This document shows, piece by piece, positions 1 to 54,624 of a stretch of DNA of 64,000 nucleotides; position 1 is the stretch's first letter, and the number at the start of each line of letters is the position of its first letter. The stretch comes from Escherichia phage 55. Below the pieces are notes generated by a model. The model had not been told where the DNA came from. It was given only the letters and a program-made list of their open reading frames with translations, and did not search any database. Made by a program: the position numbers and the translations under genes. Location of the stretch: the sequence record OQ599310; one strand, given 5' to 3'.

Positions 1-39
1 TGTGTTACTATAGACATGTCAACTAGAGGAGAAATCAAA

Positions 40-498
40 ATGACTATCAATTCAGACGTTTTTATCCGCCGCAATAAACTCCGTCGAATCTTTGAAACGG
101 AGTTCCGCAAAATAAATGCCGGTATAAAAGATGCTGCAAAGTCTCTTGGACTACCAGGCTTTCATATCAAGTATTCTCAACATCTCTTAGATCGTGCCAT
201 CCAGAGAGAAATAGATGAGAATTACGTTTTTGAATTATTTCATAAAGTAAAAAATCATGTTAAAGAAGTTGCAGAATTTTTATCAATGCCGGCACGTCCA
301 GATGTTGATGAAGATTTTGTCGAAGGTGTCGAATATCGCCCAGGCCGTTTAGAAATAACTGACGGAAATCTTTGGTTAGGACTTACAGTCTGTCGCGAAA
401 ATCCAGCATTCAAAATGAAGACTCTTCAATGCAGAATGGCTATTATTAACAGTAAACGACTACCAGGAAAAGCTTCTAAAGCAGTGATTAAAATCTAG
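40..498 (+). CDS. regB: RegB-like sequence-specific endoribonuclease
   Basis: 152-aa ORF; GAGGAG RBS precedes ATG at 40 (track start 16 is an upstream in-frame ATG); size and position upstream of tk match T4 regB. Confidence 0.6.
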   Translation: MTINSDVFIRRNKLRRIFETEFRKINAGIKDAAKSLGLPGFHIKYSQHLLDRAIQREIDENYVFELFHKVKNHVKEVAEFLSMPARPDVDEDFVEGVEYRPGRLEITDGNLWLGLTVCRENPAFKMKTLQCRMAIINSKRLPGKASKAVIKI

Positions 499-506
499 AG
501 GTAAAC

Positions 507-1049
507 ATGAGAAAAGCACTACTCGCTGGTCTATTTGCTCTTTCGTTATCAGCACATAGCTCCGAGCATACTTTTAGTAATGTCCAACTCGATAACTTGA
601 ATTATGCTTATCAGTTTGGGGAACAGTTTTCTAAGGACGGAAAATTTAAAACGCATGAAAATATGCATAAGAAAGGACTTGGATACATAATGGCCGCAAT
701 ACTATGGCAAGAATCATCCGCAGGTATTAATCTTAAAGATAAGAAAGGTCACCATGCGTATGGAATGTTCCAAAACTATCTACCAACAATGAGGGCAAGA
801 ATTAACCAGCTTGGTTATAATATGACTGATGCCCAAATTAAGAAAATGCTATCTAAGCGGTCTAATTCAGCAAGATGGGCTTATATCGAATTTTCTTATT
901 GGTTAAATATACATAACGGGGATATAAGAAAAGCTATATCCTCATATAATGCGGGATGGAAGACAAGTGCTGGAAGTAAATATGCTTCTGAAGTCCTAGA
1001 AAAGGCTAATTACCTTAAATCAAATAAACTACTGGAAATAAAAGAATGA
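507..1049 (+). CDS. exported lytic-transglycosylase-like protein
   Basis: N-terminal signal peptide (MRKALLAGLFALSLSAHS); E-S...GMFQ...YNAG pattern resembles SLT-domain motifs. Confidence 0.45.
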   Translation: MRKALLAGLFALSLSAHSSEHTFSNVQLDNLNYAYQFGEQFSKDGKFKTHENMHKKGLGYIMAAILWQESSAGINLKDKKGHHAYGMFQNYLPTMRARINQLGYNMTDAQIKKMLSKRSNSARWAYIEFSYWLNIHNGDIRKAISSYNAGWKTSAGSKYASEVLEKANYLKSNKLLEIKE

Positions 1050-1393
1050 CCAAAGTGTTGGCTTTAATAGTTGGCTTGGTTTCATTTAACACTCTTGCTA
1101 ATACTACATATACTGATGTAACGGAGTATACAAACAGAACGGCGTCTGATTATTGTGGTAAAAGCCAAGAGTGTAAAGTAGATTTTTCACAAAAATTGTT
1201 ATATGCGTATAAAGACGGAGAAAAAGATTGGGCGTCTAGTAGGTTCAAGGCGTCTACCTTAATTAAAAGATACTATAAAAAATGGCAAATATTAGAATGC
1301 TCGGTGGCGGAACCTAAAGATAAGGCAGCATGCAATTCTATGGTGGACCGTCTAGTTGACTCTTATAATAGAGGACTTGCAGCAAGTGATTAA
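1046..1393 (+). CDS. small exported protein
   Basis: 115-aa ORF with hydrophobic N-terminal signal sequence; ATGA overlap with upstream gene. Confidence 0.5.
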   Translation: MTKVLALIVGLVSFNTLANTTYTDVTEYTNRTASDYCGKSQECKVDFSQKLLYAYKDGEKDWASSRFKASTLIKRYYKKWQILECSVAEPKDKAACNSMVDRLVDSYNRGLAASD

Positions 1394-1853
1394 AAACTAT
1401 ATCAAGGGCGATATTGTCGCCCTGTTTTCTAAAGGTAATAATATTGCTCATGGGTGTAATTGTTTTCATACAATGGGCGCCGGTGTAGCAGGCCAATTAG
1501 CAAAGGCTTATCCAAAAATTTTAGAAGCCGATAAACTTCAAACCGAATTCGGAGACGAGTCTAAACTCGGGTCTTATTCGGTTTATGAAAAATATTTTAA
1601 GACCCATAAAGCTTATTGCTTTAATCTTTATACACAGTTTGAGCCCGGACCTAATTTTGAGTACTCTGCTTTAATGAATTGTATAATAGAATTAAATGAA
1701 TTCGGAAAGAATAAGATAACAAAGCCTGTAATTTATATGCCAAGAATTGGTGCAGGTATCGGTGGCGGAAACTGGGATATCATCGAAGAGATTTTAGATA
1801 CGTATTCCACTAAACTAGAAATTGTGATTGTTGATTGGGAACCATTATTATGA
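1356..1853 (+). CDS. macro-domain (ADP-ribose binding/hydrolase-like) protein
   Basis: GDIVALF...NIAHGCNCFHTMGAGVAGQL and PRIGAGIGGG resemble macrodomain Gly-rich loops; start uncertain (38-nt overlap with upstream ORF). Confidence 0.5.
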   Translation: MTLIIEDLQQVIKNYIKGDIVALFSKGNNIAHGCNCFHTMGAGVAGQLAKAYPKILEADKLQTEFGDESKLGSYSVYEKYFKTHKAYCFNLYTQFEPGPNFEYSALMNCIIELNEFGKNKITKPVIYMPRIGAGIGGGNWDIIEEILDTYSTKLEIVIVDWEPLL

Positions 1854-2062
1854 ATATACATTATCCACATCCATACGACCCAAAGAATAAGGCAGTAATT
1901 ATTCGTCAATGGGAACGCATTTGCCGTACTAAATGTCCAATTAATAGTCCACATGATGTAGATAAAGACTACATTGGAACATTCGTTGAATATACCTTTA
2001 TTGATAAGAAAGGTCGTAAACAGCATGTAGAAGAATACTGCTTAAAGGTGACATGGTTATGA
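1835..2062 (+). CDS. hypothetical protein (75 aa)
   Basis: ORF in tight early-gene array; start overlaps upstream gene. Confidence 0.4.
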   Translation: MGTIIMNIHYPHPYDPKNKAVIIRQWERICRTKCPINSPHDVDKDYIGTFVEYTFIDKKGRKQHVEEYCLKVTWL

Positions 2063-2265
2063 GCCAAACAAAAATTCTTACAGGCGCTAAATGCGAAAAA
2101 TGCGAATGGCCTGTAGTTTTTGCTTTATGCAATGACGAAATGGCTTGTGATTTTGATTATTGGTGTTACTGTTCGAACAAAGGTTGTAGCAATCATAAAG
2201 GTGAAGGGTTTTACTCAGGATTTTACCCTTACCCAGATTTCGTTAAAGAAGGTGAACCTAAATGA
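2053..2265 (+). CDS. Cys-rich small protein, putative zinc-binding
   Basis: 70 aa with multiple CxxC-type pairs (CEKCEW..., CYCSNKGCSNH). Confidence 0.45.
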   Translation: MVMSQTKILTGAKCEKCEWPVVFALCNDEMACDFDYWCYCSNKGCSNHKGEGFYSGFYPYPDFVKEGEPK

Positions 2266-2444
2266 AATTGACTAAAGAAGAGAAAGCTAAACTGTTAGAA
2301 CTTATCCATGACCTATTGGATGAACAAGCAGCCACCAATGCGTACGATGAATATGCTCCTTTGACGGACGAAGAATATCACGCATTGATGGAATCATTTG
2401 ACAGGAAAGAACAAGAACTCATTGACTACGTGAATTCACTATAA
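2262..2444 (+). CDS. hypothetical acidic protein (60 aa)
   Basis: ATGA overlap with upstream ORF; helical acidic sequence. Confidence 0.45.
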   Translation: MKLTKEEKAKLLELIHDLLDEQAATNAYDEYAPLTDEEYHALMESFDRKEQELIDYVNSL

Positions 2445-2453
2445 GGGACTCTT

Positions 2454-3035
2454 ATGGCTAGTTTAATTTTTACATATGCCGCTATGAACGCTGGTAAGTC
2501 TGCTTCATTACTTACTGCCGCACATAACTATAAAGAACGTGGCATGGGTGTATTAGTTCTTAAACCGGCTATTGATACTCGTGATTCAAAAGGTGAAATA
2601 GTCTCTCGTATTGGTATTCGTCAGGATGCCAATATAATTACAAAAGACATGGACATCTTTGAATTCTATAAATGGGCTGCAGCACAAAAGGATATTCATT
2701 GTGTATTTGTTGACGAAGCTCAGTTCTTAACTACTGAAAAGGTGTATCAACTTAGTCGTATTGTTGACGTATACAATGTGCCAGTAATGGCATATGGGCT
2801 ACGAACAGATTTTAAAGGTAATCTATTTGAAGGTTCTCAAGCATTAATGGCTATTGCCGATAAGCTTGTTGAACTTAAAGGTGTCTGTCATTGTGGTAAA
2901 AAGGCCACAATGGTAGCTAGAGTCACGGAAGACGGACTTCCAATTACAGATGGCAGTCAAATTGAAATTGGTGATACCGATAGATATGTGTCATTATGCC
3001 GGAAGCATTGGAATGATTTGACAGGGTTGTTATAA
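2454..3035 (+). CDS. tk: thymidine kinase
   Basis: MASLIFTYAAMNAGKS P-loop start, CHCGKKA zinc motif; near-collinear with T4 Tk as recalled. Confidence 0.95.
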   Translation: MASLIFTYAAMNAGKSASLLTAAHNYKERGMGVLVLKPAIDTRDSKGEIVSRIGIRQDANIITKDMDIFEFYKWAAAQKDIHCVFVDEAQFLTTEKVYQLSRIVDVYNVPVMAYGLRTDFKGNLFEGSQALMAIADKLVELKGVCHCGKKATMVARVTEDGLPITDGSQIEIGDTDRYVSLCRKHWNDLTGLL

Positions 3036-3038
3036 ATA
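3031..3038 (+). promoter_or_regulatory. late-promoter-like TATAAATA overlapping tk stop codon
   Basis: exact TATAAATA about 25 nt upstream of the ATG at 3063. Confidence 0.35.
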
Positions 3039-3062
3039 CTAATATCTAATCAAGAGGTATAT

Positions 3063-3275
3063 ATGTAGCAATTAAACGAAAGACAACTTCGTAATCTTAC
3101 TGTAACCCAATTGGATGAAATCCGAAGAGAATTAGGACATTCTATTTCTCATTTAAATGAGGATATCCGTCAAACTGGTTCTAAAGCTGATTATACACGC
3201 AAGCGCAAGCTGGAAAAATACCTCACAGATGTTAAGGCCGTCCAAAGGCGAAAAATAAATACTGGCCAAAATTAA
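3063..3275 (+). pseudogene. small ORF with in-frame TAG as codon 2 (possible amber-interrupted gene between tk and rI)
   Basis: AAGAGG RBS, ATG at 3063 followed directly by TAG, then 68 sense codons with protein-like composition ending TAA at 3273..3275. Confidence 0.3.
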
Positions 3276-4973: not shown

Positions 4974-5447
4974 ATGATTATCAATGAAAACTCTTGGCAC
5001 TTTAAAATTTATGCCGCGTTCAATAGTACATGGAATCGTCCGAAAACGTTGTGTGCTTATTTTTGGAAAACGTTAATCCCGGTATTGGCTGTTTCAATTA
5101 TTGGATTTGCGATTTTAGCAGCAGTCACAATCGTTGGCCAGGAAATTTTAACTAAATTCTTTGTTTTTAGCAGTCTATGGACATTAGTTCCAGCCTCAAT
5201 TGGTGTAGGCATTTTAATTGTAGCAGTCATGGCTTTTATTGCTACCGGGTTAGTAATTGGTCCGTCTTGGTTGTTAGACAAATATAACGACAGAAAATAT
5301 TATAAAGAAATTGAGCTCATTGCGCAAAACCAAGAACGAATTAAAAATGGACTTGAGCCTATTGAACGTAAGAAATCATTAATAGGTGAATACCTTAAAG
5401 CTCGTAAAGAAAAAGTCTGTCCTACTCTTGAATATAAGGCTAAATGA
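4974..5447 (+). CDS. membrane protein (multi-TM N-terminal region)
   Basis: long hydrophobic segments (LIPVLAVSIIGFAILAAVTIVG..., VPASIGVGILIVAVMAFIATGLVIG). Confidence 0.6.
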   Translation: MIINENSWHFKIYAAFNSTWNRPKTLCAYFWKTLIPVLAVSIIGFAILAAVTIVGQEILTKFFVFSSLWTLVPASIGVGILIVAVMAFIATGLVIGPSWLLDKYNDRKYYKEIELIAQNQERIKNGLEPIERKKSLIGEYLKARKEKVCPTLEYKAK

Positions 5448-6433
5448 TGAAAACAATTATGAAAGGCTACTTTGGTAGCCACCTTTATGGAACGTCTACT
5501 CCTGAATCTGACGTCGATTTTAAAGAAATTTATGTCCCTCATGCTCGTGATATCTTGACAGGTAACGTTAAAGAACATATGAGCAAGAACACGAATAACA
5601 CATCTTCTAAGAACACAAAAGACGACGTGGACCATGAGTTGTATAGTCTCAAATATTTCTTTAAACTAGCTGCGGATGGTGAAACTGTTGCATTAGATAT
5701 GCTTCACACTCCACCAAGTCTAGTAGTTAAATCTGATTTGCCTGATGTATGGAAGTATATTCAAGATAACAGGTCTCGTTTCTATACCACTAACATGAAA
5801 TCTTATTTAGGGTATGTCCGTAAGCAAGCTTCTAAATATGGTGTCAAGGGTTCTCGACTGGCTGTTCTTCGTCAAGCCCTTAAACGTTCTAATGAATGGG
5901 GACAATACTTTGATAACGGTGCAGTAATTCGTTTATCACATATGAAGAATGTTCTGCCTGTAGGTGAATTTGCTTCGTGGGTTGAAACCGAAAACGAGAA
6001 AACAGGTAAGCAAACATTCTATAATCTGTTAGACCGTAAATTCCAAGATACGTTAACCAATAAAGAGTTCAATGCCATCCTGGTTAAACTGGAAGAGAAC
6101 TATGGCGAACGTGCTCGTAAAGCAGAAGCTAACGAAGGTATTGACTGGAAAGCATTGAGTCATGCATGTCGTGGTGGACTTCAATTATTGGAAATTTACA
6201 AAACCGGCGACCTGGTTTACCCACTTCAGGATGCTCCATTTATTCTCGATGTTAAGCTTGGTAAACATACGTTTAAAACTGTACAAGAATTCCTAGAAGA
6301 TATCGTTGTCCAAGTTGAACATGCGTCAGAACAAGCTGCCAAGAACGGTATGCAACAAAAAGTAGATATGAGTTTCTGGGATGATTTCCTTGAGCAAGTC
6401 TATCTCGAAAATCATAATTCTTACTATAAATAA
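5444..6433 (+). CDS. nucleotidyltransferase-fold protein (Pol-beta-like)
   Basis: N-terminal YFGSHLYGTSTPESDVD fits the G[GS]-x(9-13)-DxD NTase signature; C-terminal ~200 aa unassigned. Confidence 0.5.
   Translation: MMKTIMKGYFGSHLYGTSTPESDVDFKEIYVPHARDILTGNVKEHMSKNTNNTSSKNTKDDVDHELYSLKYFFKLAADGETVALDMLHTPPSLVVKSDLPDVWKYIQDNRSRFYTTNMKSYLGYVRKQASKYGVKGSRLAVLRQALKRSNEWGQYFDNGAVIRLSHMKNVLPVGEFASWVETENEKTGKQTFYNLLDRKFQDTLTNKEFNAILVKLEENYGERARKAEANEGIDWKALSHACRGGLQLLEIYKTGDLVYPLQDAPFILDVKLGKHTFKTVQEFLEDIVVQVEHASEQAAKNGMQQKVDMSFWDDFLEQVYLENHNSYYK
6425..6432 (+). promoter_or_regulatory. late promoter TATAAATA
   Basis: exact TATAAATA 33 nt upstream of ATG 6465. Confidence 0.5.
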
Positions 6434-6812: not shown

Positions 6813-6843
6813 TCGAAACGAAATGAGTAAATTGGAGAATAAA

Positions 6844-7824
6844 ATGTTCAACGTTCAAATCAAAAAAGGTATCTATCGTAATAACGAAATCTCTGGTTCT
6901 TATGTTGCCACAAAGACCTGGTTCCCGGCAAAGCTTAATCCTGAATGTTCCCACTTAGGTGATGGTAAAATTTTCGTTATGATTGATGGTTCTGAACGTG
7001 GAGTATGGGTCTTCAAATCAGACATCGTAATGGAAGGAGTTGAGACGTCACCAGTTGCAGTTGTTGAAAGCACTGAAGATATGAAAACTCGTATCAACAA
7101 ACGCTTTAAAGTAATGAACATGATGACGAATGGCATTATTGATGGCAAAATTCGTTCACTCATTATTTCAGGTGCAGCTGGTATTGGTAAGACGTATTCT
7201 CTGGATAAAGCACTTAATAATGCTAATGATAATGGTTTCATCAAATACAAAAGCATTAATGGTAAAATCTCCGGTATTGGCCTTTACGAACAACTTTGGC
7301 TCAACCGTGATGAAGACAGCGTTCTCTTAATCGATGACGTTGACGTATTCTCAGATATGGACATCCTGAACCTTCTTAAAGCAGCATTAGATACCGGCGA
7401 TAAACGCAAAGTTTGTTGGAGCACTGCGTCATCTTATCTCGATGATAAGGGTATTGATAAAGAATTTGAGTTTGAAGGTACTATCGTTTTCATTACAAAC
7501 GTTGATATCGATAAAGAGTTAGAACGCGGTTCGAAACTTGCTCCGCACCTTCAAGCTTTAGTATCTCGTTCAGTGTATTTAGACCTTGGAGTACACTCTA
7601 ATGAAGAGATTATGGTTCGAGTTGAAGATGTAATATTATCTACTGACATGATGCAGAAACGTGGTCTGACGGATGCAGAAACGTATAAAGCATTGTCCTG
7701 GATGAAGGCTAACGTATCTCGTCTTCGCAATGTATCATTACGTACGGCTCTTTATGTAGCAGATTTTATTTCAACCGATAAAGATGGTTGGGAGGAAATC
7801 TCTGAAGTAACTTTACTGAAATAA
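6844..7824 (+). CDS. P-loop ATPase
   Basis: Walker A GAAGIGKT, Walker B VLLIDDVD; GGAG RBS before ATG 6844 (track start 6823 lacks RBS). Confidence 0.6.
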   Translation: MFNVQIKKGIYRNNEISGSYVATKTWFPAKLNPECSHLGDGKIFVMIDGSERGVWVFKSDIVMEGVETSPVAVVESTEDMKTRINKRFKVMNMMTNGIIDGKIRSLIISGAAGIGKTYSLDKALNNANDNGFIKYKSINGKISGIGLYEQLWLNRDEDSVLLIDDVDVFSDMDILNLLKAALDTGDKRKVCWSTASSYLDDKGIDKEFEFEGTIVFITNVDIDKELERGSKLAPHLQALVSRSVYLDLGVHSNEEIMVRVEDVILSTDMMQKRGLTDAETYKALSWMKANVSRLRNVSLRTALYVADFISTDKDGWEEISEVTLLK

Positions 7825-29014: not shown

Positions 29015-31726
29015 ATGAAAGAATTTTACTTAACGGTTGAACAGATTGGTGATTCAATTTTTGAACGTTACATCGATTCTAATGGCCGTGAACGTACTCG
29101 TGAAGTAGAATATAAACCATCATTGTTTGCTCATTGTCCAGAAAGTCAGGCTACTAAATATTTCGATATCTACGGTAAGCCGTGTACTCGTAAGTTGTTC
29201 GCTAATATGCGTGATGCCTCCCAATGGATTAAACGCATGGAAGATATCGGACTTGAAGCACTTGGCATGGACGATTTCAAATTGGCGTATTTGTCTGACA
29301 CTTATAACTATGAAATCAAATACGACCATACAAAAATTCGTGTGGCTAACTTCGACATCGAAGTAACATCTCCGGATGGGTTCCCTGAGCCGTCACAAGC
29401 AAAACATCCGATTGATGCTATCACCCATTATGACTCAATCGACGACAGGTTCTACGTATTTGACCTTTTGAATTCTCCATATGGTAATGTAGAAGAATGG
29501 TCTATCGAAATTGCGGCTAAGCTTCAAGAACAAGGTGGTGATGAAGTTCCGTCCGAAATTATCGATAAAATCATTTATATGCCGTTTGATAATGAAAAAG
29601 AATTATTGATGGAATATCTCAACTTCTGGCAACAGAAAACTCCTGTCATTTTGACTGGATGGAACGTTGAGTCATTTGATATTCCATATGTGTATAACCG
29701 AATCAAGAATATTTTTGGTGAATCTACTGCGAAACGTTTATCACCACATCGTAAAACTCGTGTTAAAGTTATCGAAAACATGTATGGTTCTCGTGAAATC
29801 ATTACATTGTTCGGTATCTCTGTTCTTGATTATATCGACCTTTACAAAAAATTCTCTTTCACAAACCAACCGTCGTATTCTCTGGATTACATTTCAGAAT
29901 TTGAATTGAATGTCGGTAAACTGAAATATGACGGTCCTATTTCTAAACTTCGTGAAAGTAATCACCAACGATATATTTCTTATAACATTACCGACGTGTA
30001 TCGTGTATTGCAAATTGATGCTAAACGCCAGTTCATAAACTTGAGTTTGGACATGGGTTATTATGCTAAGATACAGATTCAATCTGTGTTTAGCCCAATT
30101 AAAACATGGGATGCTATTATTTTTAATAGCCTTAAAGAGCAGAACAAGGTGATTCCACAAGGTCGTTCTCACCCGGTTCAACCTTATCCTGGCGCTTTTG
30201 TTAAGGAACCTATTCCAAATCGATACAAATATGTAATGAGTTTCGACCTTACATCTCTGTATCCAAGTATTATTCGCCAAGTGAATATTAGCCCAGAAAC
30301 AATAGCAGGAACGTTTAAAGTAGCTCCATTGCATGATTATATTAACGCAATCGCTGAACGTCCTTCAGATGTGTACAGTTGCTCTCCTAACGGCATGATG
30401 TATTATAAAGACCGTGATGGTGTAGTTCCAACTGAAATCACTAAGGTCTTTAATCAACGTAAAGAACATAAAGGTTACATGCTTGCAGCTCAACGTAATG
30501 GTGAAATAATTAAAGAAGCCTTACATAATCCTAATCTTTCTGTTGACGAACCATTAGATGTTGATTATCGTTTCGACTTCACTGACGAGATTAAAGAAAA
30601 GATTAAAAAGTTGTCTGCTAAATCTCTTAATGAAATGTTGTTTAGAGCTCAACGTACTGAAGTTGCAGGTATGACTGCACAAATTAACCGTAAATTGCTT
30701 ATCAACTCACTTTATGGTGCACTTGGCAACGTTTGGTTCCGTTATTATGATTTGCGTAATGCTACTGCAATCACAACATTTGGGCAAATGGCTTTACAGT
30801 GGATTGAACGTAAAGTTAATGAATACCTGAACGAAGTTTGTGGTACAGAAGGTGAAGCTTTCGTTCTTTACGGTGATACAGACTCTATTTACGTATCTGC
30901 TGATAAAATTATCGATAAGGTTGGTGAATCTAAATTCCGTGATACCAACCATTGGGTAGACTTCTTAGATAAGTTTGCACGTGAACGTATGGAACCGGCT
31001 ATTGATAGAGGTTTCCGTGAAATGTGTGAATACATGAACAATAAACAACACTTAATGTTCATGGACCGAGAAGCTATCGCTGGTCCTCCGCTCGGTTCTA
31101 AAGGTATTGGTGGATTCTGGACCGGTAAGAAACGTTATGCATTAAACGTGTGGGATATGGAAGGAACCAGATACGCTGAGCCTAAACTCAAAATCATGGG
31201 TCTCGAAACACAGAAATCTTCGACCCCTAAAGCAGTACAGAAAGCTCTTAAAGAATGTATTCGTCGTATGCTTCAAGAAGGTGAAGAATCATTACAAGAA
31301 TATTTTAAAGAGTTTGAAAAAGAATTCCGTCAATTGAATTATATTAGCATCGCGTCGGTATCTTCTGCGAATAACATTGCTAAATATGACGTTGGTGGAT
31401 TCCCTGGTCCTAAATGTCCGTTCCATATTCGTGGAATTCTGACATATAACAGAGCTATCAAAGGTAATATTGATGCTCCACAAGTTGTAGAAGGTGAAAA
31501 AGTATATGTTCTGCCTTTACGTGAAGGAAACCCATTCGGTGATAAATGTATCGCATGGCCTTCTGGTACTGAAATCACAGATTTAATTAAAGACGACGTA
31601 CTTCATTGGATGGACTACACTGTTCTCCTTGAGAAGACATTTATTAAACCACTTGAAGGATTCACATCAGCAGCGAAACTCGATTACGAGAAGAAAGCAT
31701 CTCTGTTCGATATGTTCGATTTTTGA
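29015..31726 (+). CDS. 43: DNA polymerase gp43 (family B, RB69-type, 903 aa)
   Basis: MKEFYLTVEQIGDSIF...; exonuclease FDIE/YNITD, polymerase DxxSLYPS and YGDTDS motifs; length and N-terminus match RB69 gp43 as recalled. Confidence 0.97.
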   Translation: MKEFYLTVEQIGDSIFERYIDSNGRERTREVEYKPSLFAHCPESQATKYFDIYGKPCTRKLFANMRDASQWIKRMEDIGLEALGMDDFKLAYLSDTYNYEIKYDHTKIRVANFDIEVTSPDGFPEPSQAKHPIDAITHYDSIDDRFYVFDLLNSPYGNVEEWSIEIAAKLQEQGGDEVPSEIIDKIIYMPFDNEKELLMEYLNFWQQKTPVILTGWNVESFDIPYVYNRIKNIFGESTAKRLSPHRKTRVKVIENMYGSREIITLFGISVLDYIDLYKKFSFTNQPSYSLDYISEFELNVGKLKYDGPISKLRESNHQRYISYNITDVYRVLQIDAKRQFINLSLDMGYYAKIQIQSVFSPIKTWDAIIFNSLKEQNKVIPQGRSHPVQPYPGAFVKEPIPNRYKYVMSFDLTSLYPSIIRQVNISPETIAGTFKVAPLHDYINAIAERPSDVYSCSPNGMMYYKDRDGVVPTEITKVFNQRKEHKGYMLAAQRNGEIIKEALHNPNLSVDEPLDVDYRFDFTDEIKEKIKKLSAKSLNEMLFRAQRTEVAGMTAQINRKLLINSLYGALGNVWFRYYDLRNATAITTFGQMALQWIERKVNEYLNEVCGTEGEAFVLYGDTDSIYVSADKIIDKVGESKFRDTNHWVDFLDKFARERMEPAIDRGFREMCEYMNNKQHLMFMDREAIAGPPLGSKGIGGFWTGKKRYALNVWDMEGTRYAEPKLKIMGLETQKSSTPKAVQKALKECIRRMLQEGEESLQEYFKEFEKEFRQLNYISIASVSSANNIAKYDVGGFPGPKCPFHIRGILTYNRAIKGNIDAPQVVEGEKVYVLPLREGNPFGDKCIAWPSGTEITDLIKDDVLHWMDYTVLLEKTFIKPLEGFTSAAKLDYEKKASLFDMFDF

Positions 31727-31766: not shown

Positions 31767-32402
31767 ATGAAAACTACTCCTATTACTATCGCTATTGACG
31801 CAATTATAAAACAAGCTTCTTCTTTGGCCGCTATGGCCAAAGTAATTAGTCAAAACCCTGCTCGTTATAATGCTATTCTAGAAACTCTTCGACGCCCAGG
31901 ACTTAGCAATTATGAAAGCCGAGTAATTATTACAGGTGTTGGTAAGAATGCTAATATTGCAACTAAAGCTTCTGAGACATTTGCTTCACTCGGTATCCCA
32001 AGTATGTACTTGAACACCGGGCATTATTCTCACGGTGATGCAGGATTCATTGCGCCTAATGATGTGTTGATTCATATTAGTCGTTCTGGTAAAACTGAAG
32101 AAATGATAGGCGTGGCTAAGCATCTTAAAATGATTCGACCGAACGTCAAACAGATTCTGTTGCATTGTAACCCAGACATTCCACAAGAAAATGAAGCCCT
32201 TTTTGATTACTCTTTCTGTACAGGCATCGCGGTAGAGGTTGATGAGAATTCTCTGGCTCCGACCATGTCCACTACATTGTTGTTAGCGCTTATCGATACG
32301 TTTGCTATCAACCTTTCGTCTGAACGTGGATTTACCTCTAATGACTTCCTTAAGTTCCATCCAGGCGGTGCACTAGGTGCCATGTTACGAGGCGAGCAAT
32401 GA
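31767..32402 (+). CDS. single-domain SIS sugar-phosphate isomerase, D-arabinose-5-phosphate isomerase-like (KdsD/GutQ family)
   Basis: ITGVGKNANIATKASETFASLGIPS...HGDAGFI...ISRSGKTEE...LAPTMSTT...FHPGGALG tracks the KdsD SIS domain motifs. Confidence 0.7.
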   Translation: MKTTPITIAIDAIIKQASSLAAMAKVISQNPARYNAILETLRRPGLSNYESRVIITGVGKNANIATKASETFASLGIPSMYLNTGHYSHGDAGFIAPNDVLIHISRSGKTEEMIGVAKHLKMIRPNVKQILLHCNPDIPQENEALFDYSFCTGIAVEVDENSLAPTMSTTLLLALIDTFAINLSSERGFTSNDFLKFHPGGALGAMLRGEQ

Positions 32403-43365: not shown

Positions 43366-43659
43366 ATGAAAAAGTTATCATTGGCAGCAATCCTACTTGC
43401 AGTATCATGTGCACCGGCTCCAGTTACGGCAGGTTATGATAAAGACCTCTGTGAGTGGTCAATGACTGCAAATCAAGAAGATGTTGAACAACAAATCTTC
43501 TCTGATATCATGAACATCACTAAACGAGACCGTCCTAATATGGTTAATAAAGTTGTTGAACAACTTAAGTCTGGCGGTATCATGCAGTACAACTATGTTT
43601 TGTATTGTGACCCTAATTTCGATAACAAAGATATCGTAACCGAAATCACAGGTGAATAA
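43366..43659 (+). CDS. exported protein, Spackle (sp)-like by size, signal peptide and position
   Basis: 97 aa; signal peptide MKKLSLAAILLAVSCA; between genes 41 and 61 as T4 sp. Confidence 0.4.
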   Translation: MKKLSLAAILLAVSCAPAPVTAGYDKDLCEWSMTANQEDVEQQIFSDIMNITKRDRPNMVNKVVEQLKSGGIMQYNYVLYCDPNFDNKDIVTEITGE

Positions 43660-43660
43660 T

Positions 43661-44311
43661 ATGATTTATTATATGCACAAAAACGCACCATTTAAATATG
43701 GTAAATTTCCTAATGCACAATGTTATAATATAACGCCGAATGAAAATAATAACGGATACCATATTGGTGTAATTTTTGTAATTGTTAAAGATAACGAAAT
43801 TGTTGCCTGGGCAGATTTTAAAGGTACAACATATGATGTTAATCCAGTGCCTTTCACATATTATAATTTAATGGATTTAGCATACGACTATAATTGGTTT
43901 ACTCATGATACTCTAGCACATGTTGAAGGCGTAGGATTTGACATCTCTTATTCTAGTTATTCATTATGTCCTATGAGCCGAGCTCACGGTAAAGATGTAT
44001 CATATCTTTCAATTCGGAAACGTGTAAACTTCAAACGTAGTACAGAGTATGTTGGTGGACTCTTTGTTAAAGATAATAAAATAACTCGTATTAGTTATCC
44101 TTTAAGTGTAGGTCAAAAAGATGTTGATGTTGATTTAGACTTAACTGAAAGTAACATTAATCGTATTGCTTCTGTATATTTTGATATCGATGAAAAAATT
44201 GTAGTGTGTGGATACGAATTACCACCTGAAGAAAAGGTTGAAGCAATTGAAGTCGAATTAGAAATTTCTGTTGATGACCAAATATTTAATGCATTTATGA
44301 ATCGAGGTTAA
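43661..44311 (+). CDS. hypothetical protein (216 aa) in AT-rich segment
   Basis: ATG 43661 right after upstream stop; markedly AT-rich codon usage. Confidence 0.5.
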   Translation: MIYYMHKNAPFKYGKFPNAQCYNITPNENNNGYHIGVIFVIVKDNEIVAWADFKGTTYDVNPVPFTYYNLMDLAYDYNWFTHDTLAHVEGVGFDISYSSYSLCPMSRAHGKDVSYLSIRKRVNFKRSTEYVGGLFVKDNKITRISYPLSVGQKDVDVDLDLTESNINRIASVYFDIDEKIVVCGYELPPEEKVEAIEVELEISVDDQIFNAFMNRG

Positions 44312-49085: not shown

Positions 49086-49667
49086 ATGACATGTCAATCT
49101 GAACTTCAAGAACGCGAGTATCTCGCAGCACTAATTAACGATAAATTCACTAAACAAGAACAAAACATTCTCTGGGCTTGCACCGATTCTAAGGAAGACC
49201 CGGATTTCCACTATGAATTAGACCATCTTGTTCGTAAGCATATGACTTCTACAGTACCAGTAGAACTCTACCGTGGTGTAACTCCAGAAGAAGTAGAACA
49301 TCTTTCCCTTCTTTCTGTTGGATGCCATTGGTCTCCTGGACGAGTAACATCGTTCACAACTGATTTCAGTACGGCTCGTCAATTCTCTGGGAGATGGGAA
49401 TATCAGACGTACACTATTCTTAGTCTCAGGAATGCTCCATTCATTTTTGATTACTACCAAAACATGGTTAACATTGTACTCGCCGGAAAGAATCCTAAGC
49501 ATGTTATGGAAGAAACGCGCGTTGACGTCCTAGATATGATTGAATCTGAACAAGAGTACATGGTCTCAGGCATCTCTAGATTTGAGATTGTGGAAATTGA
49601 AGACTTAGAATATGACCCTTTATCTCGATTATACAAAATCATTCATTTGAAAATGTTGAATTTTTAG
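49086..49667 (+). CDS. modA: mono-ADP-ribosyltransferase, ModA-like
   Basis: R / S-T / E-x-E ART-type motifs (YRG..., SFTTD, EQEYMV); first of two tandem paralogs. Confidence 0.5.
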   Translation: MTCQSELQEREYLAALINDKFTKQEQNILWACTDSKEDPDFHYELDHLVRKHMTSTVPVELYRGVTPEEVEHLSLLSVGCHWSPGRVTSFTTDFSTARQFSGRWEYQTYTILSLRNAPFIFDYYQNMVNIVLAGKNPKHVMEETRVDVLDMIESEQEYMVSGISRFEIVEIEDLEYDPLSRLYKIIHLKMLNF

Positions 49668-49724: not shown

Positions 49725-50333
49725 ATGTTTATGCCGTATAACGAGTGTGAAATTGAAGAAATGGTTCGTCGTGCTCAAAACCCCGAATATCAAGATGTAT
49801 TGCAGTACGAAATTGATAGTCAATTCAGCGACATTGAACAAAGTGTACTGTGGCAGTGTATGGAAAACAAGCCAGACTGTATTCAACAGGAGTTAAGTTC
49901 AATCGTTCGTAGAAATTGGACGTCTTCTGTTCCTGAGACAATGTATCGTGGAATCTCTAAGAAAACTATGGCCACACTTGATGATAAAGGCATCGGTAGT
50001 ATTATTAAATTTGACAGAGTAATGAGCTTCAGTCCAGTGTTCGGTGTAGCACGTAACTTTGCTTCGTATAATTTTTACGGAACATTTAATATGTTCTGCA
50101 TCAAAGATGCACCATTTGCTTTCAACTTCCGTGAACATATGCTTAACATGATTCTGGCTGCGCCATCTTGTGAGTTCAATGGAGCTTTCCCTGAAGCGAC
50201 AAGACGGTCTAATGCTAGACTTATATCTGACGAATGTGAATTTATGCTCCCTATAGGGACTACACTGCGTGTAGATTCTATTATTCAAGATGGACGTTAT
50301 ACAATCTGGAATCTGTCTATTGTCGGTTACTGA
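49725..50333 (+). CDS. modB: mono-ADP-ribosyltransferase, ModB-like
   Basis: paralog of previous ORF (YRGISKK..., SFSP..., ECEFMLP). Confidence 0.5.
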   Translation: MFMPYNECEIEEMVRRAQNPEYQDVLQYEIDSQFSDIEQSVLWQCMENKPDCIQQELSSIVRRNWTSSVPETMYRGISKKTMATLDDKGIGSIIKFDRVMSFSPVFGVARNFASYNFYGTFNMFCIKDAPFAFNFREHMLNMILAAPSCEFNGAFPEATRRSNARLISDECEFMLPIGTTLRVDSIIQDGRYTIWNLSIVGY

Positions 50334-50486: not shown

Positions 50487-51233
50487 ATGTTATCAAATAA
50501 TAAAATTAACAAAATCAATCGTCGTCTTGACCACACCAGAGCTTCTGCGAAGAGACGCTCTAAGGATTTTAACTTAGACTTTAATTACCTTAAAAACATT
50601 CTTGATCAAAAGGTCTGCGCTTACTCAGGTGAATCTTTTAATAACTCTGTTGAAGGTGAGAAATTATCCTTAGAACGTTTTAATAATGATATAGGCTACA
50701 TTAAAGGTAATGTTATCCCAGTTAAGAAAAAATATAACACGGCTCGTTCTGATTTAACACTAGAAGAACTTATTGAGAAACGTGACGCTGTTGCAAGACG
50801 TATTGCTAATCCTTCTGCCCGTAAAGTAGAGAAACTTAATCTCGACGAGAAGAAATGGGCCCAAATTAAAAAGGTTTATGATACTATTTTAAAAATCCGA
50901 GCAAAACGTGAAAATCGTGTTAAGCATATGGCGAACATGATGAAAAATCAACCTTTATCTAACGAATCTAAACTTAGAATTGTTGCTTTGAAAGCACGCA
51001 TTAATGGCTCACATCAAGCAGAAGGCCATGAACTTACTAAACTCAACGTTCTTCTTAAAGGCTCTGACTGGAAAACTAAAACTAAATTAACTGACGCTGA
51101 ATCGCTTTTCGATACATATGATAAAGTTATCCAAGGTCTGCGACGTTTTGAAAAGATTGGTTTCATTGGTAAATTAAAATTGAAACGTGGCTTACCACTT
51201 AGCGCATCATTATTCCAACTGATTAAAGGTTAA
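50487..51233 (+). CDS. Srd-like protein (by position and size)
   Basis: 248-aa basic protein between modB-like gene and dda, as T4 srd. Confidence 0.4.
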   Translation: MLSNNKINKINRRLDHTRASAKRRSKDFNLDFNYLKNILDQKVCAYSGESFNNSVEGEKLSLERFNNDIGYIKGNVIPVKKKYNTARSDLTLEELIEKRDAVARRIANPSARKVEKLNLDEKKWAQIKKVYDTILKIRAKRENRVKHMANMMKNQPLSNESKLRIVALKARINGSHQAEGHELTKLNVLLKGSDWKTKTKLTDAESLFDTYDKVIQGLRRFEKIGFIGKLKLKRGLPLSASLFQLIKG

Positions 51234-53549: not shown

Positions 53550-53579
53550 GTTTACAACCAAGGATGGTTGGAGTATAAT
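53550..53579 (+). promoter_or_regulatory. early promoter, copy 3 of conserved promoter repeat
   Basis: GTTTAC-AACCAAGGATGGTTGGAG-TATAAT. Confidence 0.55.
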
Positions 53580-53609
53580 CTTTCTATCTTAACCAAACAG
53601 GAAAACATT

Positions 53610-54104
53610 ATGAATATCAATACTACGGCTACTTACATCCTGAAAGATGAAAAACAAATCAACTGGTATGGTGCTTCAGTGCGAGCTTATGAAAAGTTTT
53701 GTGAAATTTTAGGTGCCACTCAAGGTAATAGTTTCACTATTGTTAACTTCATCAAACAAGTTGAAGGCCCTTGGTTATTCTTAGAAATTAAAAATTCATA
53801 TGGTACAATTTCTACTACCGCCCTTCCAAGCACCGACTTTGAACTGCTGATTGAAGAAGTAGAACCCGTTAAAGATATCTGTATTGATATGGATATCGCT
53901 TGTATGTACGGTACTCTTATTAAGCCTATTGAGCCTACTGATTTGCTGTGTAAATATGTTTCAATTCGACGCCCATTCGCTGGTCCAGTAAATGGATGGG
54001 TAACTGATCAGTGGATTGAAGACGGTGTTGAACTTCTGAACGTTGTTCATGCCGGTGATTTTAGTGTGGTTCCACGTAGTGCAGTAGTTAATATTCTAAA
54101 TTAA
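53610..54104 (+). CDS. paralog 1 of a three-gene family (conserved C-terminal GW[IV][ST]DQW[IV]EDG...N[IV]V...GDF.VV)
   Basis: ATG 53610 (track start 53568 is a TTG inside the promoter repeat). Confidence 0.55.
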   Translation: MNINTTATYILKDEKQINWYGASVRAYEKFCEILGATQGNSFTIVNFIKQVEGPWLFLEIKNSYGTISTTALPSTDFELLIEEVEPVKDICIDMDIACMYGTLIKPIEPTDLLCKYVSIRRPFAGPVNGWVTDQWIEDGVELLNVVHAGDFSVVPRSAVVNILN

Positions 54105-54168: not shown

Positions 54169-54624
54169 ATGATTACTATTGGTGAAATTAAGCGTGTATC
54201 GTCTGCATCTCGTTCTAAAGCTGCAGGTCGTCTAGTTGAAGTGGTAGGACTTCGTACTAATGGTACTGGACGTGTTAAAGAAGTTAAAGTTCGAATCATT
54301 CCTAGTTCTGGAAAAACTGAAACTCAGTACGCTTACGTAAGTCCTAAATTCTTGGAAACTCATGTGAGCGCTCATTTTGCTTCTACTGAACCTAATGTAC
54401 AGTTCAAATGGGCCCTTTGCAAAGGCGTTGAATTCCGGACTGATAAAGAATTTGATTTCATCGACGAATATGGTTATCCAAACAAAACTGATATTATGTG
54501 CGGCTTCATCACTGACCAATGGGTTGAAGATGGTGAAAAGTTATACAATATCGTATTCTTAGGTGACTTCCGAGTTGTTAAAGAATCTGAAATCACTCGC
54601 TATGTGTCTCCTCGTAAAGCTTAA
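54169..54624 (+). CDS. paralog 2 of the three-gene family
   Basis: shares N-terminal SRSK(A/V)AG(R/K)LVEV and C-terminal GFITDQWVEDGEKLYNIVFLGDFRVV with paralog 3. Confidence 0.55.
   Translation: MITIGEIKRVSSASRSKAAGRLVEVVGLRTNGTGRVKEVKVRIIPSSGKTETQYAYVSPKFLETHVSAHFASTEPNVQFKWALCKGVEFRTDKEFDFIDEYGYPNKTDIMCGFITDQWVEDGEKLYNIVFLGDFRVVKESEITRYVSPRKA

What the first reader, a model, noticed from the sequence alone, without database searches (positions are those of the whole stretch)
1356..1853. Macro-domain protein in the regB-tk early cluster
The Gly-rich motifs (NIAHGCNCFHTMGAGVAGQL; PRIGAGIGGG) resemble macrodomain ADP-ribose-binding loops. The same window encodes two Mod-type ADP-ribosyltransferases and an Arr-like protein, so the phage may both write and erase ADP-ribosylation. 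It could alternatively counter ADP-ribose/NAD-based host defences.
Basis: inference. Interest (0 to 1): 0.55.

Follow-up and report, generated by a model that had tools for sequence, protein, structure and literature searches.

The report
T4 Tk.4/AdfM macrodomain orthologue
This gene is the counterpart, in a T4-like E. coli phage, of T4 tk.4 (AdfM), a small ADP-ribose-handling macrodomain protein already reported to protect T4 from the bacterial DarTG2 defence, so the finding is correct but already known.

Summary

One point is less ordinary. Tk.4 is not a DarG mimic. It belongs to the Poa1p-like phage family that includes Adpp, an ADP-ribose-1''-phosphate phosphatase. It keeps that family's essential His and has an invariant Gln where DarG, TARG1 and PhiKZ "AdfM" have the catalytic Lys. 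The lineage lacks NARP1, so an Adpp-type role is unlikely here. How Tk.4 neutralises DarT2 is still untested biochemically.

The parts
1386..1853 (+). tk.4 / adfM coding sequence: 155 aa, GTG start, TGA stop, a single macrodomain
   Evidence: ORF. Start homologous to the T4 ATG and to the annotated start in LR027383. 86% identity over 155 of 155 residues to T4 Tk.4 NP_049723. Pfam Macro above its cut-off. AF2 pLDDT 95.6, pTM 0.91.
1356..1385 (+).
   Evidence: T4 has a TAG stop directly upstream of its start, so the extension is not conserved.
1371..1375 (+). GAGGA Shine-Dalgarno-like sequence for tk.4, inside the end of vs; the tk.4 start overlaps the vs stop (TAA 1391-1393) by 8 nt
   Evidence: Sequence. 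The same motif at the same distance in T4.
1449..1490 (+). Loop 1 / catalytic motif H22-G-C-N25-C-F-H-T-M-G-A-G-V-A35. N25 equals DarG N22. H22 equals Poa1p H23 and Adpp H24.
   Evidence: Family alignment: G23, N25, G33 and A35 invariant; H22, C24, C26, M30 and G31 at 90% or more. hhalign to DarG. Adpp H24A abolishes its anti-defence function.
1623..1637 (+). N80-L-Y-T-Q84 motif at the end of strand beta 75-82. Q84 occupies the position of the catalytic Lys of DarG (K80), PhiKZ AdfM (K78) and TARG1 (K84).
   Evidence: Q84 is invariant in 64 of 64 Tk.4-like and 12 of 12 NARP1-linked relatives, while DarG-type proteins have Lys in 3 of 3. Profile-profile alignment NLYTQ / NFPTK, probability 98.8%.
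1740..1775 (+). Loop 2, P119-R-I-G-A-G-I-G-G-G-N-W130: the Gly-rich diphosphate-binding loop. Position 126, equivalent to TARG1 D125, is Gly.
   Evidence: P119, I121, G122, G124 and W130 invariant. Aligned with MPRIGCGLAGGKW of BT1257 and PPLGAGNGGLPW of DarG.
1850..2062 (+). tk.3, translationally coupled downstream gene: ATG 1850 overlaps the tk.4 TGA 1851-1853. Context only.
1046..1393 (+). vs (valyl-tRNA synthetase modifier), the upstream gene overlapping the tk.4 start. Context only; same order as in T4.

Best explanation
The gene is the Mosigvirus orthologue of T4 tk.4 (adfM). It encodes a stand-alone 155-residue macrodomain made from the regB-vs-tk gene cluster. The two Gly-rich loops (residues 22-35 and 119-130) form the ADP-ribose pocket. 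Its biological job is most likely counter-defence against the host DarTG2 toxin-antitoxin system. DarT2 ADP-ribosylates thymidines in single-stranded phage DNA and blocks replication, and Tk.4 most probably hydrolyses that ADP-ribose off the DNA again.

Shown here: the fold, orthology, synteny and active-site make-up. Shown elsewhere, for T4 only: the tk.4 knock-out becomes DarTG2-sensitive. Inferred: that the window protein does the same, and that it works by enzymatic de-ADP-ribosylation.

The chemistry cannot be that of DarG or TARG1, because the catalytic Lys is an invariant Gln. Catalysis would have to rely on the conserved His22 / Asn25 / Gln84 set that Tk.4 shares with the Poa1p/Adpp phosphatases.

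For: Orthology: 86% identity, no gaps, E 2e-105 to T4 Tk.4. Identical gene order regB-vs.1-vs-tk.4-tk.3-...-tk.

Function of the T4 orthologue: tk.4 was the single significant transposon-screen hit on a DarTG2 host, and a clean knock-out was sensitised. All T-even phages tested, including RB69, resist DarTG2, and T4 lacking both adfA and adfN stays resistant.

Consistency: T5, which is DarTG2-sensitive, has no family member.

Homology to the DarG macrodomain is real though distant: hhalign probability 98.8%, E 8e-17, with DarG N22 conserved as N25; PADLOC DarG model E 1.4e-8. A DarG-type phage macrodomain, PhiKZ gp104, does remove DarT2-made ADP-ribose from DNA in vitro. The same window also carries AdfA, another anti-DarT factor.
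Against: There is no biochemistry for Tk.4 from any phage, and the T4 evidence is one preprint with genetic data only.

The residue that is catalytic in DarG and TARG1 is Gln here and throughout the family, and there is no TARG1-D125 equivalent.

The closest biochemically characterised relative, Vibrio phage Gary Adpp (35% identity, E 2e-24), is an ADP-ribose-1''-phosphate phosphatase, not a DNA glycohydrolase.

The window protein differs from T4 Tk.4 at 22 positions, although none is at a conserved column, and this phage has not been tested on DarTG2.
Confidence: 0.68

Rival explanations
1. It is chiefly an ADP-ribose-1''-phosphate phosphatase, like Adpp and Poa1p. It would convert ADPR-1''-P, made for example by the aRES NAD+-cleaving defence or by tRNA-splicing-type reactions, into ADP-ribose.
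For: It belongs to the same family as Gary Adpp: full-length 35% identity, E 2e-24. Reciprocal searches retrieve about the same 2,700 phage records. It is nested with NARP1-linked macros in the tree. The His essential in Adpp (H24A) and mutated in Poa1p (H23A) is conserved as H22. Poa1p is the best Foldseek hit. T4 Tk.4 is annotated 'phosphatase; A1pp phosphatase motif'.
Against: Adpp only helps by feeding ADP-ribose to NARP1. Neither Adps nor Namat is present in the window or in the rest of a 98.3%-identical complete genome (best E 0.18, while the control Adpp hit is 1e-19). No Escherichia phage appears in the published list of NARP1-linked macros. The T4 phenotype is on DarTG2. Two columns separate Tk.4-like from most NARP1-linked proteins: G23 versus Gln, and T83 versus Gly. 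The activity may still exist as a side reaction.
Confidence: 0.17
2. It erases the phage's own ADP-ribosylation marks, written by Alt, ModA and ModB on RNA polymerase, S1 and other host proteins. This would give a write/erase cycle and is the reader's lead idea.
For: Two Mod-type ARTs are in the same window (PHROG 832), and an Alt-like ART is in a near-identical genome.
Against: Alt and Mod enzymes modify arginine, and N-glycosidic Arg-ADP-ribose is reversed by ARH-type enzymes rather than by known macrodomains (established knowledge). The family is widespread in phages of many hosts and genera. tk.4 is not adjacent to mod, lying about 47 kb away in the window. In T4, tk.4 insertions were depleted only on the DarTG2 host.
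Confidence: 0.04
3. It is a non-catalytic binder. It would shield ADP-ribosylated DNA, sequester ADP-ribose-derived molecules, or inhibit DarT2 directly, rather than hydrolysing anything.
For: The Lys needed for catalysis in DarG and TARG1 is absent.
Against: A close family member is a proven enzyme that depends on the conserved His. H22, N25 and Q84 are invariant or nearly so, as expected for an active site. The protein is a bare 155-residue macrodomain without the DarT-binding domain of DarG.
Confidence: 0.07
4. It degrades ADP-ribose-derived immune signals or by-products, such as O-acetyl-ADP-ribose or Thoeris-type cyclic ADPR isomers.
For: Some sources name homologues 'O-acetyl-ADP-ribose deacetylase'.
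Against: These are automatic names only. No genetic or contextual link was found, and the T4 screen pointed to DarTG2.
Confidence: 0.04

Closest known systems
Phage T4 Tk.4 = AdfM (NP_049723; bioRxiv 10.1101/2025.11.20.689424)
   Same: 86% identical over all 155 residues, with no gaps. Same locus between vs and tk.3, and the same start context. All conserved family columns are retained.
   Different: 22 substitutions at variable positions (for example G127, where T4 has K). GTG instead of ATG start. The host phage is a Mosigvirus, not a Tequatrovirus. The anti-DarTG2 phenotype has been tested only in T4.
Adpp of Vibrio phage Gary (KNV71_gp137), an ADPR-1''-phosphate phosphatase of the NARP1-AP pathway (bioRxiv 10.64898/2026.01.28.702374)
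   Same: Same sequence family: 35% identity, E 2e-24. Shared motifs are AH-x-CNCF..MG.G[IV]A, N-x-Y-x-Q and IG-x-G-[IL]-[AG]-GG-[DN]-W. The essential His is conserved.
   Different: Adpp sits between Adps and Namat, whereas this lineage has neither. Most NARP1-linked members have Gln at position 23 and Gly at position 83, where Tk.4-like proteins have Gly and Thr.
Yeast Poa1p (PDB 6LFQ/6LFR) and Bacteroides BT1257 (PDB 2AFC/2FG1)
   Different: Only 24-30% identity. They are cellular proteins. BT1257 has no known function. Poa1p acts on a tRNA-splicing by-product.
DarG antitoxin macrodomain (PDB 5M31/5M3E/5M3I/7OMU) and the DarG-like PhiKZ gp104, also named 'AdfM' (Cell Rep 2026, PMC13309987)
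   Different: Catalytic Lys replaced by Gln, and FPTK replaced by LYTQ. About 20% identity. DarG models score 31-33 bits against 133 bits for PhiKZ gp104, with an NCBIfam cut-off of 250. No DarT-binding domain. BLASTP to PhiKZ gp104 aligns only 23 residues. The shared name covers two separate macrodomain lineages.
Human TARG1/OARD1 (PDB 4J5R)
   Different: Both TARG1 catalytic residues are missing: K84 corresponds to Q84 and D125 to G126. The mapping uses the TARG1 sequence recalled from memory and the known residue numbers, and is consistent with the DarG alignment.

Membership tests
Macro domain (Pfam PF01661) | Profile match above the curated gathering score | tested here: met
   27.7 bits against 22, profile positions 2-117 of 118.
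Macro domain (Pfam PF01661) | Three-layer alpha/beta/alpha macro fold | tested here: met
Macro domain (Pfam PF01661) | Binds ADP-ribose | not testable with these tools
   Both Gly-rich loops and the conserved Asn are present. Binding itself needs ITC, a thermal-shift assay or a co-crystal.
T4 Tk.4 / AdfM orthologous group | Full-length high identity to T4 Tk.4 | tested here: met
   133 of 155 identical, no gaps, E 2e-105.
T4 Tk.4 / AdfM orthologous group | Conserved position between vs and tk.3 in the regB-tk cluster | tested here: met
T4 Tk.4 / AdfM orthologous group | Protects the phage from DarTG2 | not testable with these tools
   Shown for T4 only. RB69-group phages are reported DarTG2-resistant.
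DarG-type macrodomain (DarG2, PhiKZ gp104 AdfM) | Catalytic lysine (Taq DarG K80, PhiKZ K78) | tested here: not met
   Gln84 is aligned to the Lys by hhalign and MAFFT, and is invariant in 76 of 76 family members.
DarG-type macrodomain (DarG2, PhiKZ gp104 AdfM) | Active-site asparagine (Taq N22, PhiKZ N23) | tested here: met
   N25 is invariant.
DarG-type macrodomain (DarG2, PhiKZ gp104 AdfM) | Scores as DarG with curated models | tested here: not met
   NCBIfam NF048014 30.9 bits against cut-off 250. PADLOC DarG 32.6 bits against 132.9 for PhiKZ gp104.
DarG-type macrodomain (DarG2, PhiKZ gp104 AdfM) | C-terminal DarT-binding domain (DarG antitoxins proper) | tested here: not met
   The protein is 155 aa and is entirely the macrodomain. 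It matches only positions 4-146 of the 329-338-position DarG models.
TARG1-type glycohydrolase | Lys84 / Asp125 catalytic dyad | tested here: not met
   Q84 and G126 occupy the equivalent positions (TARG1 numbering from established knowledge).
Poa1p / Adpp-type ADPR-1''-phosphate phosphatase | Full-length homology and the conserved catalytic His (Poa1p H23, Adpp H24) | tested here: met
   35% identity, E 2e-24 to Adpp. H22 is conserved in 63 of 64 and 12 of 12. H24A is inactive.
Poa1p / Adpp-type ADPR-1''-phosphate phosphatase | Genomic linkage to NARP1 (Adps + Namat), as defines Adpp | tested here: not met
   No Adps or Namat homologue in the window or the rest of NC_041863. The neighbours are vs and tk.3.
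Poa1p / Adpp-type ADPR-1''-phosphate phosphatase | Phosphatase activity on ADPR-1''-P | not testable with these tools
   Needs an enzyme assay.

The most novel reading that the evidence does not exclude
T4-type AdfM (Tk.4) is not a captured DarG. It is a member of the Poa1p/Adpp phosphatase family, with an invariant Gln in place of the DarG/TARG1 catalytic Lys. If it really strips ADP-ribose from thymidine in DNA, it does so by a Lys-independent mechanism not yet described for base-linked ADP-ribose. It might also be bifunctional, acting as both a DNA-ADPr hydrolase and an ADPR-1''-P phosphatase, and so counter two unrelated defences, DarTG2 and aRES-type NAD+ cleavage. Phages would then have recruited two different macrodomain lineages against DarT2, both now called AdfM.
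Probability: 0.4. Interest if true: 0.5.

Novelty: already known. Interest (0 to 1): 0.22.

Why it matters
As a genome-scan finding it adds little. Proteins 97-99% identical are already deposited as 'macro domain protein'. The T4 orthologue has carried an A1pp-phosphatase note in its RefSeq annotation and received a name and a phenotype in 2025.

What remains useful is a clarification for the ADP-ribosylation and phage-defence field. The same 155-residue phage macrodomain family (PHROG 335, found in about 5% of sequenced phages) has within months been assigned two different counter-defence roles, AdfM and Adpp. The T4-type AdfM also lacks the catalytic lysine of the DarG enzymes it is said to mimic. 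That makes the substrate range and chemistry of this family a directly testable question. It also cautions against transferring either name across the family by homology alone.

Tried and rejected
1. A sigma-70 promoter and terminator scan of 1-3200 found fewer promoter-like sites than in shuffled sequence, so it says nothing about expression. The hairpin at 1405-1423 lies inside the coding sequence.

2. It was not found, but the scan did not cover every small ORF.

3. NARP1 genes (Adps, Namat) were searched by tblastn in the window plus the remainder of a 98.3%-identical genome and are absent.

4. T5 was checked for a family member that would have uncoupled family membership from DarTG2 resistance, and none was found. 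This is a single-phage correlation.

It was rerun without it.

6. Model coordinates are not exposed, so I could not measure distances between H22, N25, Q84 and K60, or dock ADP-ribose. The Q84 = K80 equivalence rests on profile-profile and multiple alignments and on the matching strand-end position.

7. The literature was searched for any Tk.4 biochemistry and none was found.

8. I looked for a subfamily marker that would separate 'AdfM-type' from 'Adpp-type' members. G23 and T83 differ in most cases, but one NARP1-linked Acinetobacter protein has both Tk.4-like residues, so they are not clean discriminators.

Full report
**What is there.**

The coding sequence almost certainly starts at GTG 1386, giving 155 aa:
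- This codon aligns with the ATG of T4 tk.4.
- T4 has an in-frame TAG immediately upstream, so the 10-codon extension is not conserved.
- Both phages have GAGGA 11 nt upstream.
- A near-identical GenBank record annotates the same start.

The start overlaps the stop of vs by 8 nt. The stop overlaps the ATG of tk.3 in an ATGA arrangement, so the gene sits in a tightly packed, probably translationally coupled run.

**Where the window comes from.** The first 3.1 kb are 98-99% identical to many E. coli phages of the genus Mosigvirus (the RB69 group, Tevenvirinae), and the gene order is regB, vs.1, vs, tk.4, tk.3..., tk. T4 has exactly the same order. Several of these records already label the gene 'macro domain protein', 'ADP-ribose binding module' or 'phosphatase'. 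The T4 RefSeq entry reads 'phosphatase; Tk.4; contains A1pp phosphatase motif'.

**Is it a macrodomain?** Yes.
- Pfam Macro (PF01661) matches at 27.7 bits against a gathering cut-off of 22, over almost the whole profile.
- PHROG 335 matches at E 1.4e-66.
- An AlphaFold2 model built on 64 homologues is very confident, with pLDDT 95.6 and pTM 0.91.
- Foldseek against the PDB puts yeast Poa1p first (TM 0.80), followed by TARG1, Bacteroides BT1257 and the DarG macrodomains, all at probability 1.00.

The protein therefore belongs to the TARG1/DarG/Poa1p branch of the macrodomain superfamily.

**What is known about the orthologue.** The window protein is 86% identical to T4 Tk.4 over all 155 residues without a gap. 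None of the 22 differences falls on a conserved family column.

A 2025 preprint used a transposon library of T4 on a DarTG2-expressing host. It found tk.4 as the single significant hit and showed that a clean knock-out becomes DarTG2-sensitive. It named the gene adfM (anti-DarT factor macrodomain) and proposed, by analogy and without biochemistry, that it removes ADP-ribose from DNA.

This filled a gap noted earlier. All T-even phages tested, RB69 included, resist DarTG2, and T4 lacking both AdfA and AdfN is still resistant.

Consistent with this, T5, which is DarTG2-sensitive, has no member of this family. The best tblastn hit is E 1 or worse, and a family HMM reaches only 7.7 bits over the whole unique genome.

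**What it is not.** A second paper used the same name, AdfM, for PhiKZ gp104. That protein is a close DarG relative (E 9e-25 to M. tuberculosis DarG), has the DarG active-site Asn and Lys, and was shown in vitro to remove DarT2-made ADP-ribose from DNA.

Tk.4 is a different lineage:
- BLASTP to PhiKZ gp104 aligns only 23 residues.
- The PADLOC DarG model gives 32.6 bits against 132.9 for gp104.
- The NCBIfam DarG equivalog gives 30.9 bits against a cut-off of 250.
- Profile-profile comparison confirms distant homology (probability 98.8%) and aligns NLYTQ of Tk.4 with NFPTK of DarG. Gln84 therefore sits where DarG has its catalytic Lys80.
- This Gln is invariant in 64 of 64 Tk.4-like proteins down to 35% identity and in 12 of 12 further relatives, whereas the three DarG-type sequences all have Lys.
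- The TARG1 Asp125 position is Gly or Ala.

Membership of the DarG and TARG1 enzyme types therefore fails on a defining feature, although the protein may still work on the same substrate.

**The family it does belong to.** A 2026 preprint describes Adpp, a Poa1p-like macrodomain encoded between the two NARP1 genes of Vibrio phage Gary and others. Adpp converts ADP-ribose-1''-phosphate, the product of the aRES NAD+-cleaving defence, into ADP-ribose so that NARP1 can rebuild NAD+. An H24A mutant is inactive.

Evidence that Tk.4 is in this family:
- The window protein is 35% identical to Adpp over its full length (E 2e-24).
- Searching phage genomes with either protein returns essentially the same ~2,700 records.
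- In a joint tree, the NARP1-linked proteins are sister clades of the T4-like clade, with BT1257 next and the DarG-type proteins on a long separate branch.
- Adpp H24 and Poa1p H23 correspond to His22 here, conserved in 63 of 64 and 12 of 12. Asn25 and Gln84 are shared by the whole family.

**Weighing the two roles for this gene.** Adpp is useful only as a feeder for NARP1. Neither Adps nor Namat has a homologue in the window or in the remainder of a 98.3%-identical complete genome, while the control finds tk.4 at 1e-19. No Escherichia phage is in the published list of NARP1-linked macros.

Together with the T4 genetics, this favours the anti-DarTG2 role for the window gene. An ADPR-1''-phosphatase side activity cannot be excluded.

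Two columns differ between most Tk.4-like and most NARP1-linked proteins: Gly23 versus Gln, and Thr83 versus Gly, with Thr also found in DarG. One NARP1-linked Acinetobacter protein has the Tk.4-like residues, so these are hints and not markers.

Two Mod-type ADP-ribosyltransferase genes are in the window, at 49086-49667 and 49725-50333 (PHROG 832). An Alt-like gene lies elsewhere in a near-identical genome.

A write/erase pairing is unlikely for three reasons. Those enzymes modify arginine, a linkage that macrodomains are not known to reverse (established knowledge). The family occurs in thousands of phages of many other hosts. In T4, tk.4 insertions were depleted specifically on the DarTG2 host.

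No Arr-like protein was found. The window does encode AdfA, an anti-DarT1 factor (Pfam PF23813, 393 bits), and the relative's genome has a gp30.3/AdfN homologue. This lineage therefore carries the full set of three anti-DarT factors described for T-even phages.

**Verdict.** The fold call is right, and the function is best explained as anti-DarTG2 counter-defence by homology to T4 AdfM. This is already known, so the score is low.

The remaining open question is biochemical. A protein of the Adpp/Poa1p phosphatase family, lacking the DarG/TARG1 lysine, is credited with reversing thymidine ADP-ribosylation, and nobody has yet shown which bond it cuts.

Noticed in passing
window 43652-44311 (+): Encodes AdfA (Pfam PF23813 'Anti-DarT factor A', 392.7 bits). 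The same 64-kb window therefore carries two different anti-DarT factors: AdfA against DarT1 and Tk.4/AdfM against DarT2. A gp30.3/AdfN homologue lies outside the window in the 98.3%-identical genome NC_041863 (21331-21789).
   Followed up: partly
literature: T4 Tk.4 vs PhiKZ gp104: Name collision. 'AdfM' was coined independently for T4 Tk.4 (Poa1p/Adpp-like, with Gln at the catalytic-Lys position) and for PhiKZ gp104 (a true DarG-like macrodomain with the Lys). By BLASTP they align over only 23 residues.
   Followed up: yes
window 49086-49667 and 49725-50333 (+): The tandem ModA/ModB-like ADP-ribosyltransferases match PHROG 832 (E about 1e-37) but have no Pfam hit at E below 0.01. Srd follows at 50487-51233.
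   Followed up: partly
window 31767-32402 (+): A SIS-domain (sugar isomerase) protein sits directly downstream of the DNA polymerase gene (29015-31726). T4 has no such gene there as far as I recall. It may relate to the different hydroxymethylcytosine sugar modification of RB69-group phages.
   Followed up: no
window 53568-54104 and 54169-54624 (+): Two adjacent ORFs both match the Pfam motB family (35 and 133 bits), which suggests a diverged tandem duplicate of the transcription modifier MotB.
   Followed up: no
window 5444-6433 and 6823-7824 (+): An RlaP-family (RNA-repair-pathway, polymerase-beta-type) nucleotidyltransferase scores 48 bits. It is followed by a 333-aa protein with weak, sub-threshold P-loop/STAND-NTPase and HTH matches.
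   Followed up: no
window 1405-1423 (+): A G+C-rich 8-bp hairpin followed by a T-run (AGGGCGATATTGTCGCCCT GTTTTCT) lies inside codons 7-13 of tk.4 and was picked up by the terminator scan. It is probably incidental to the coding sequence (IKGDIVALF), but it sits just after the start codon.
   Followed up: no
L008 7588-8094 (phage T5 gene T5.105): This gene is annotated 'Sir2 (NAD-dependent deacetylase)' in RefSeq. Its N-terminus (IIFLDIDGVLN) looks like a HAD-superfamily phosphatase motif instead, so it is probably mis-annotated by proximity to the real Sir2 gene T5.102.
   Followed up: no
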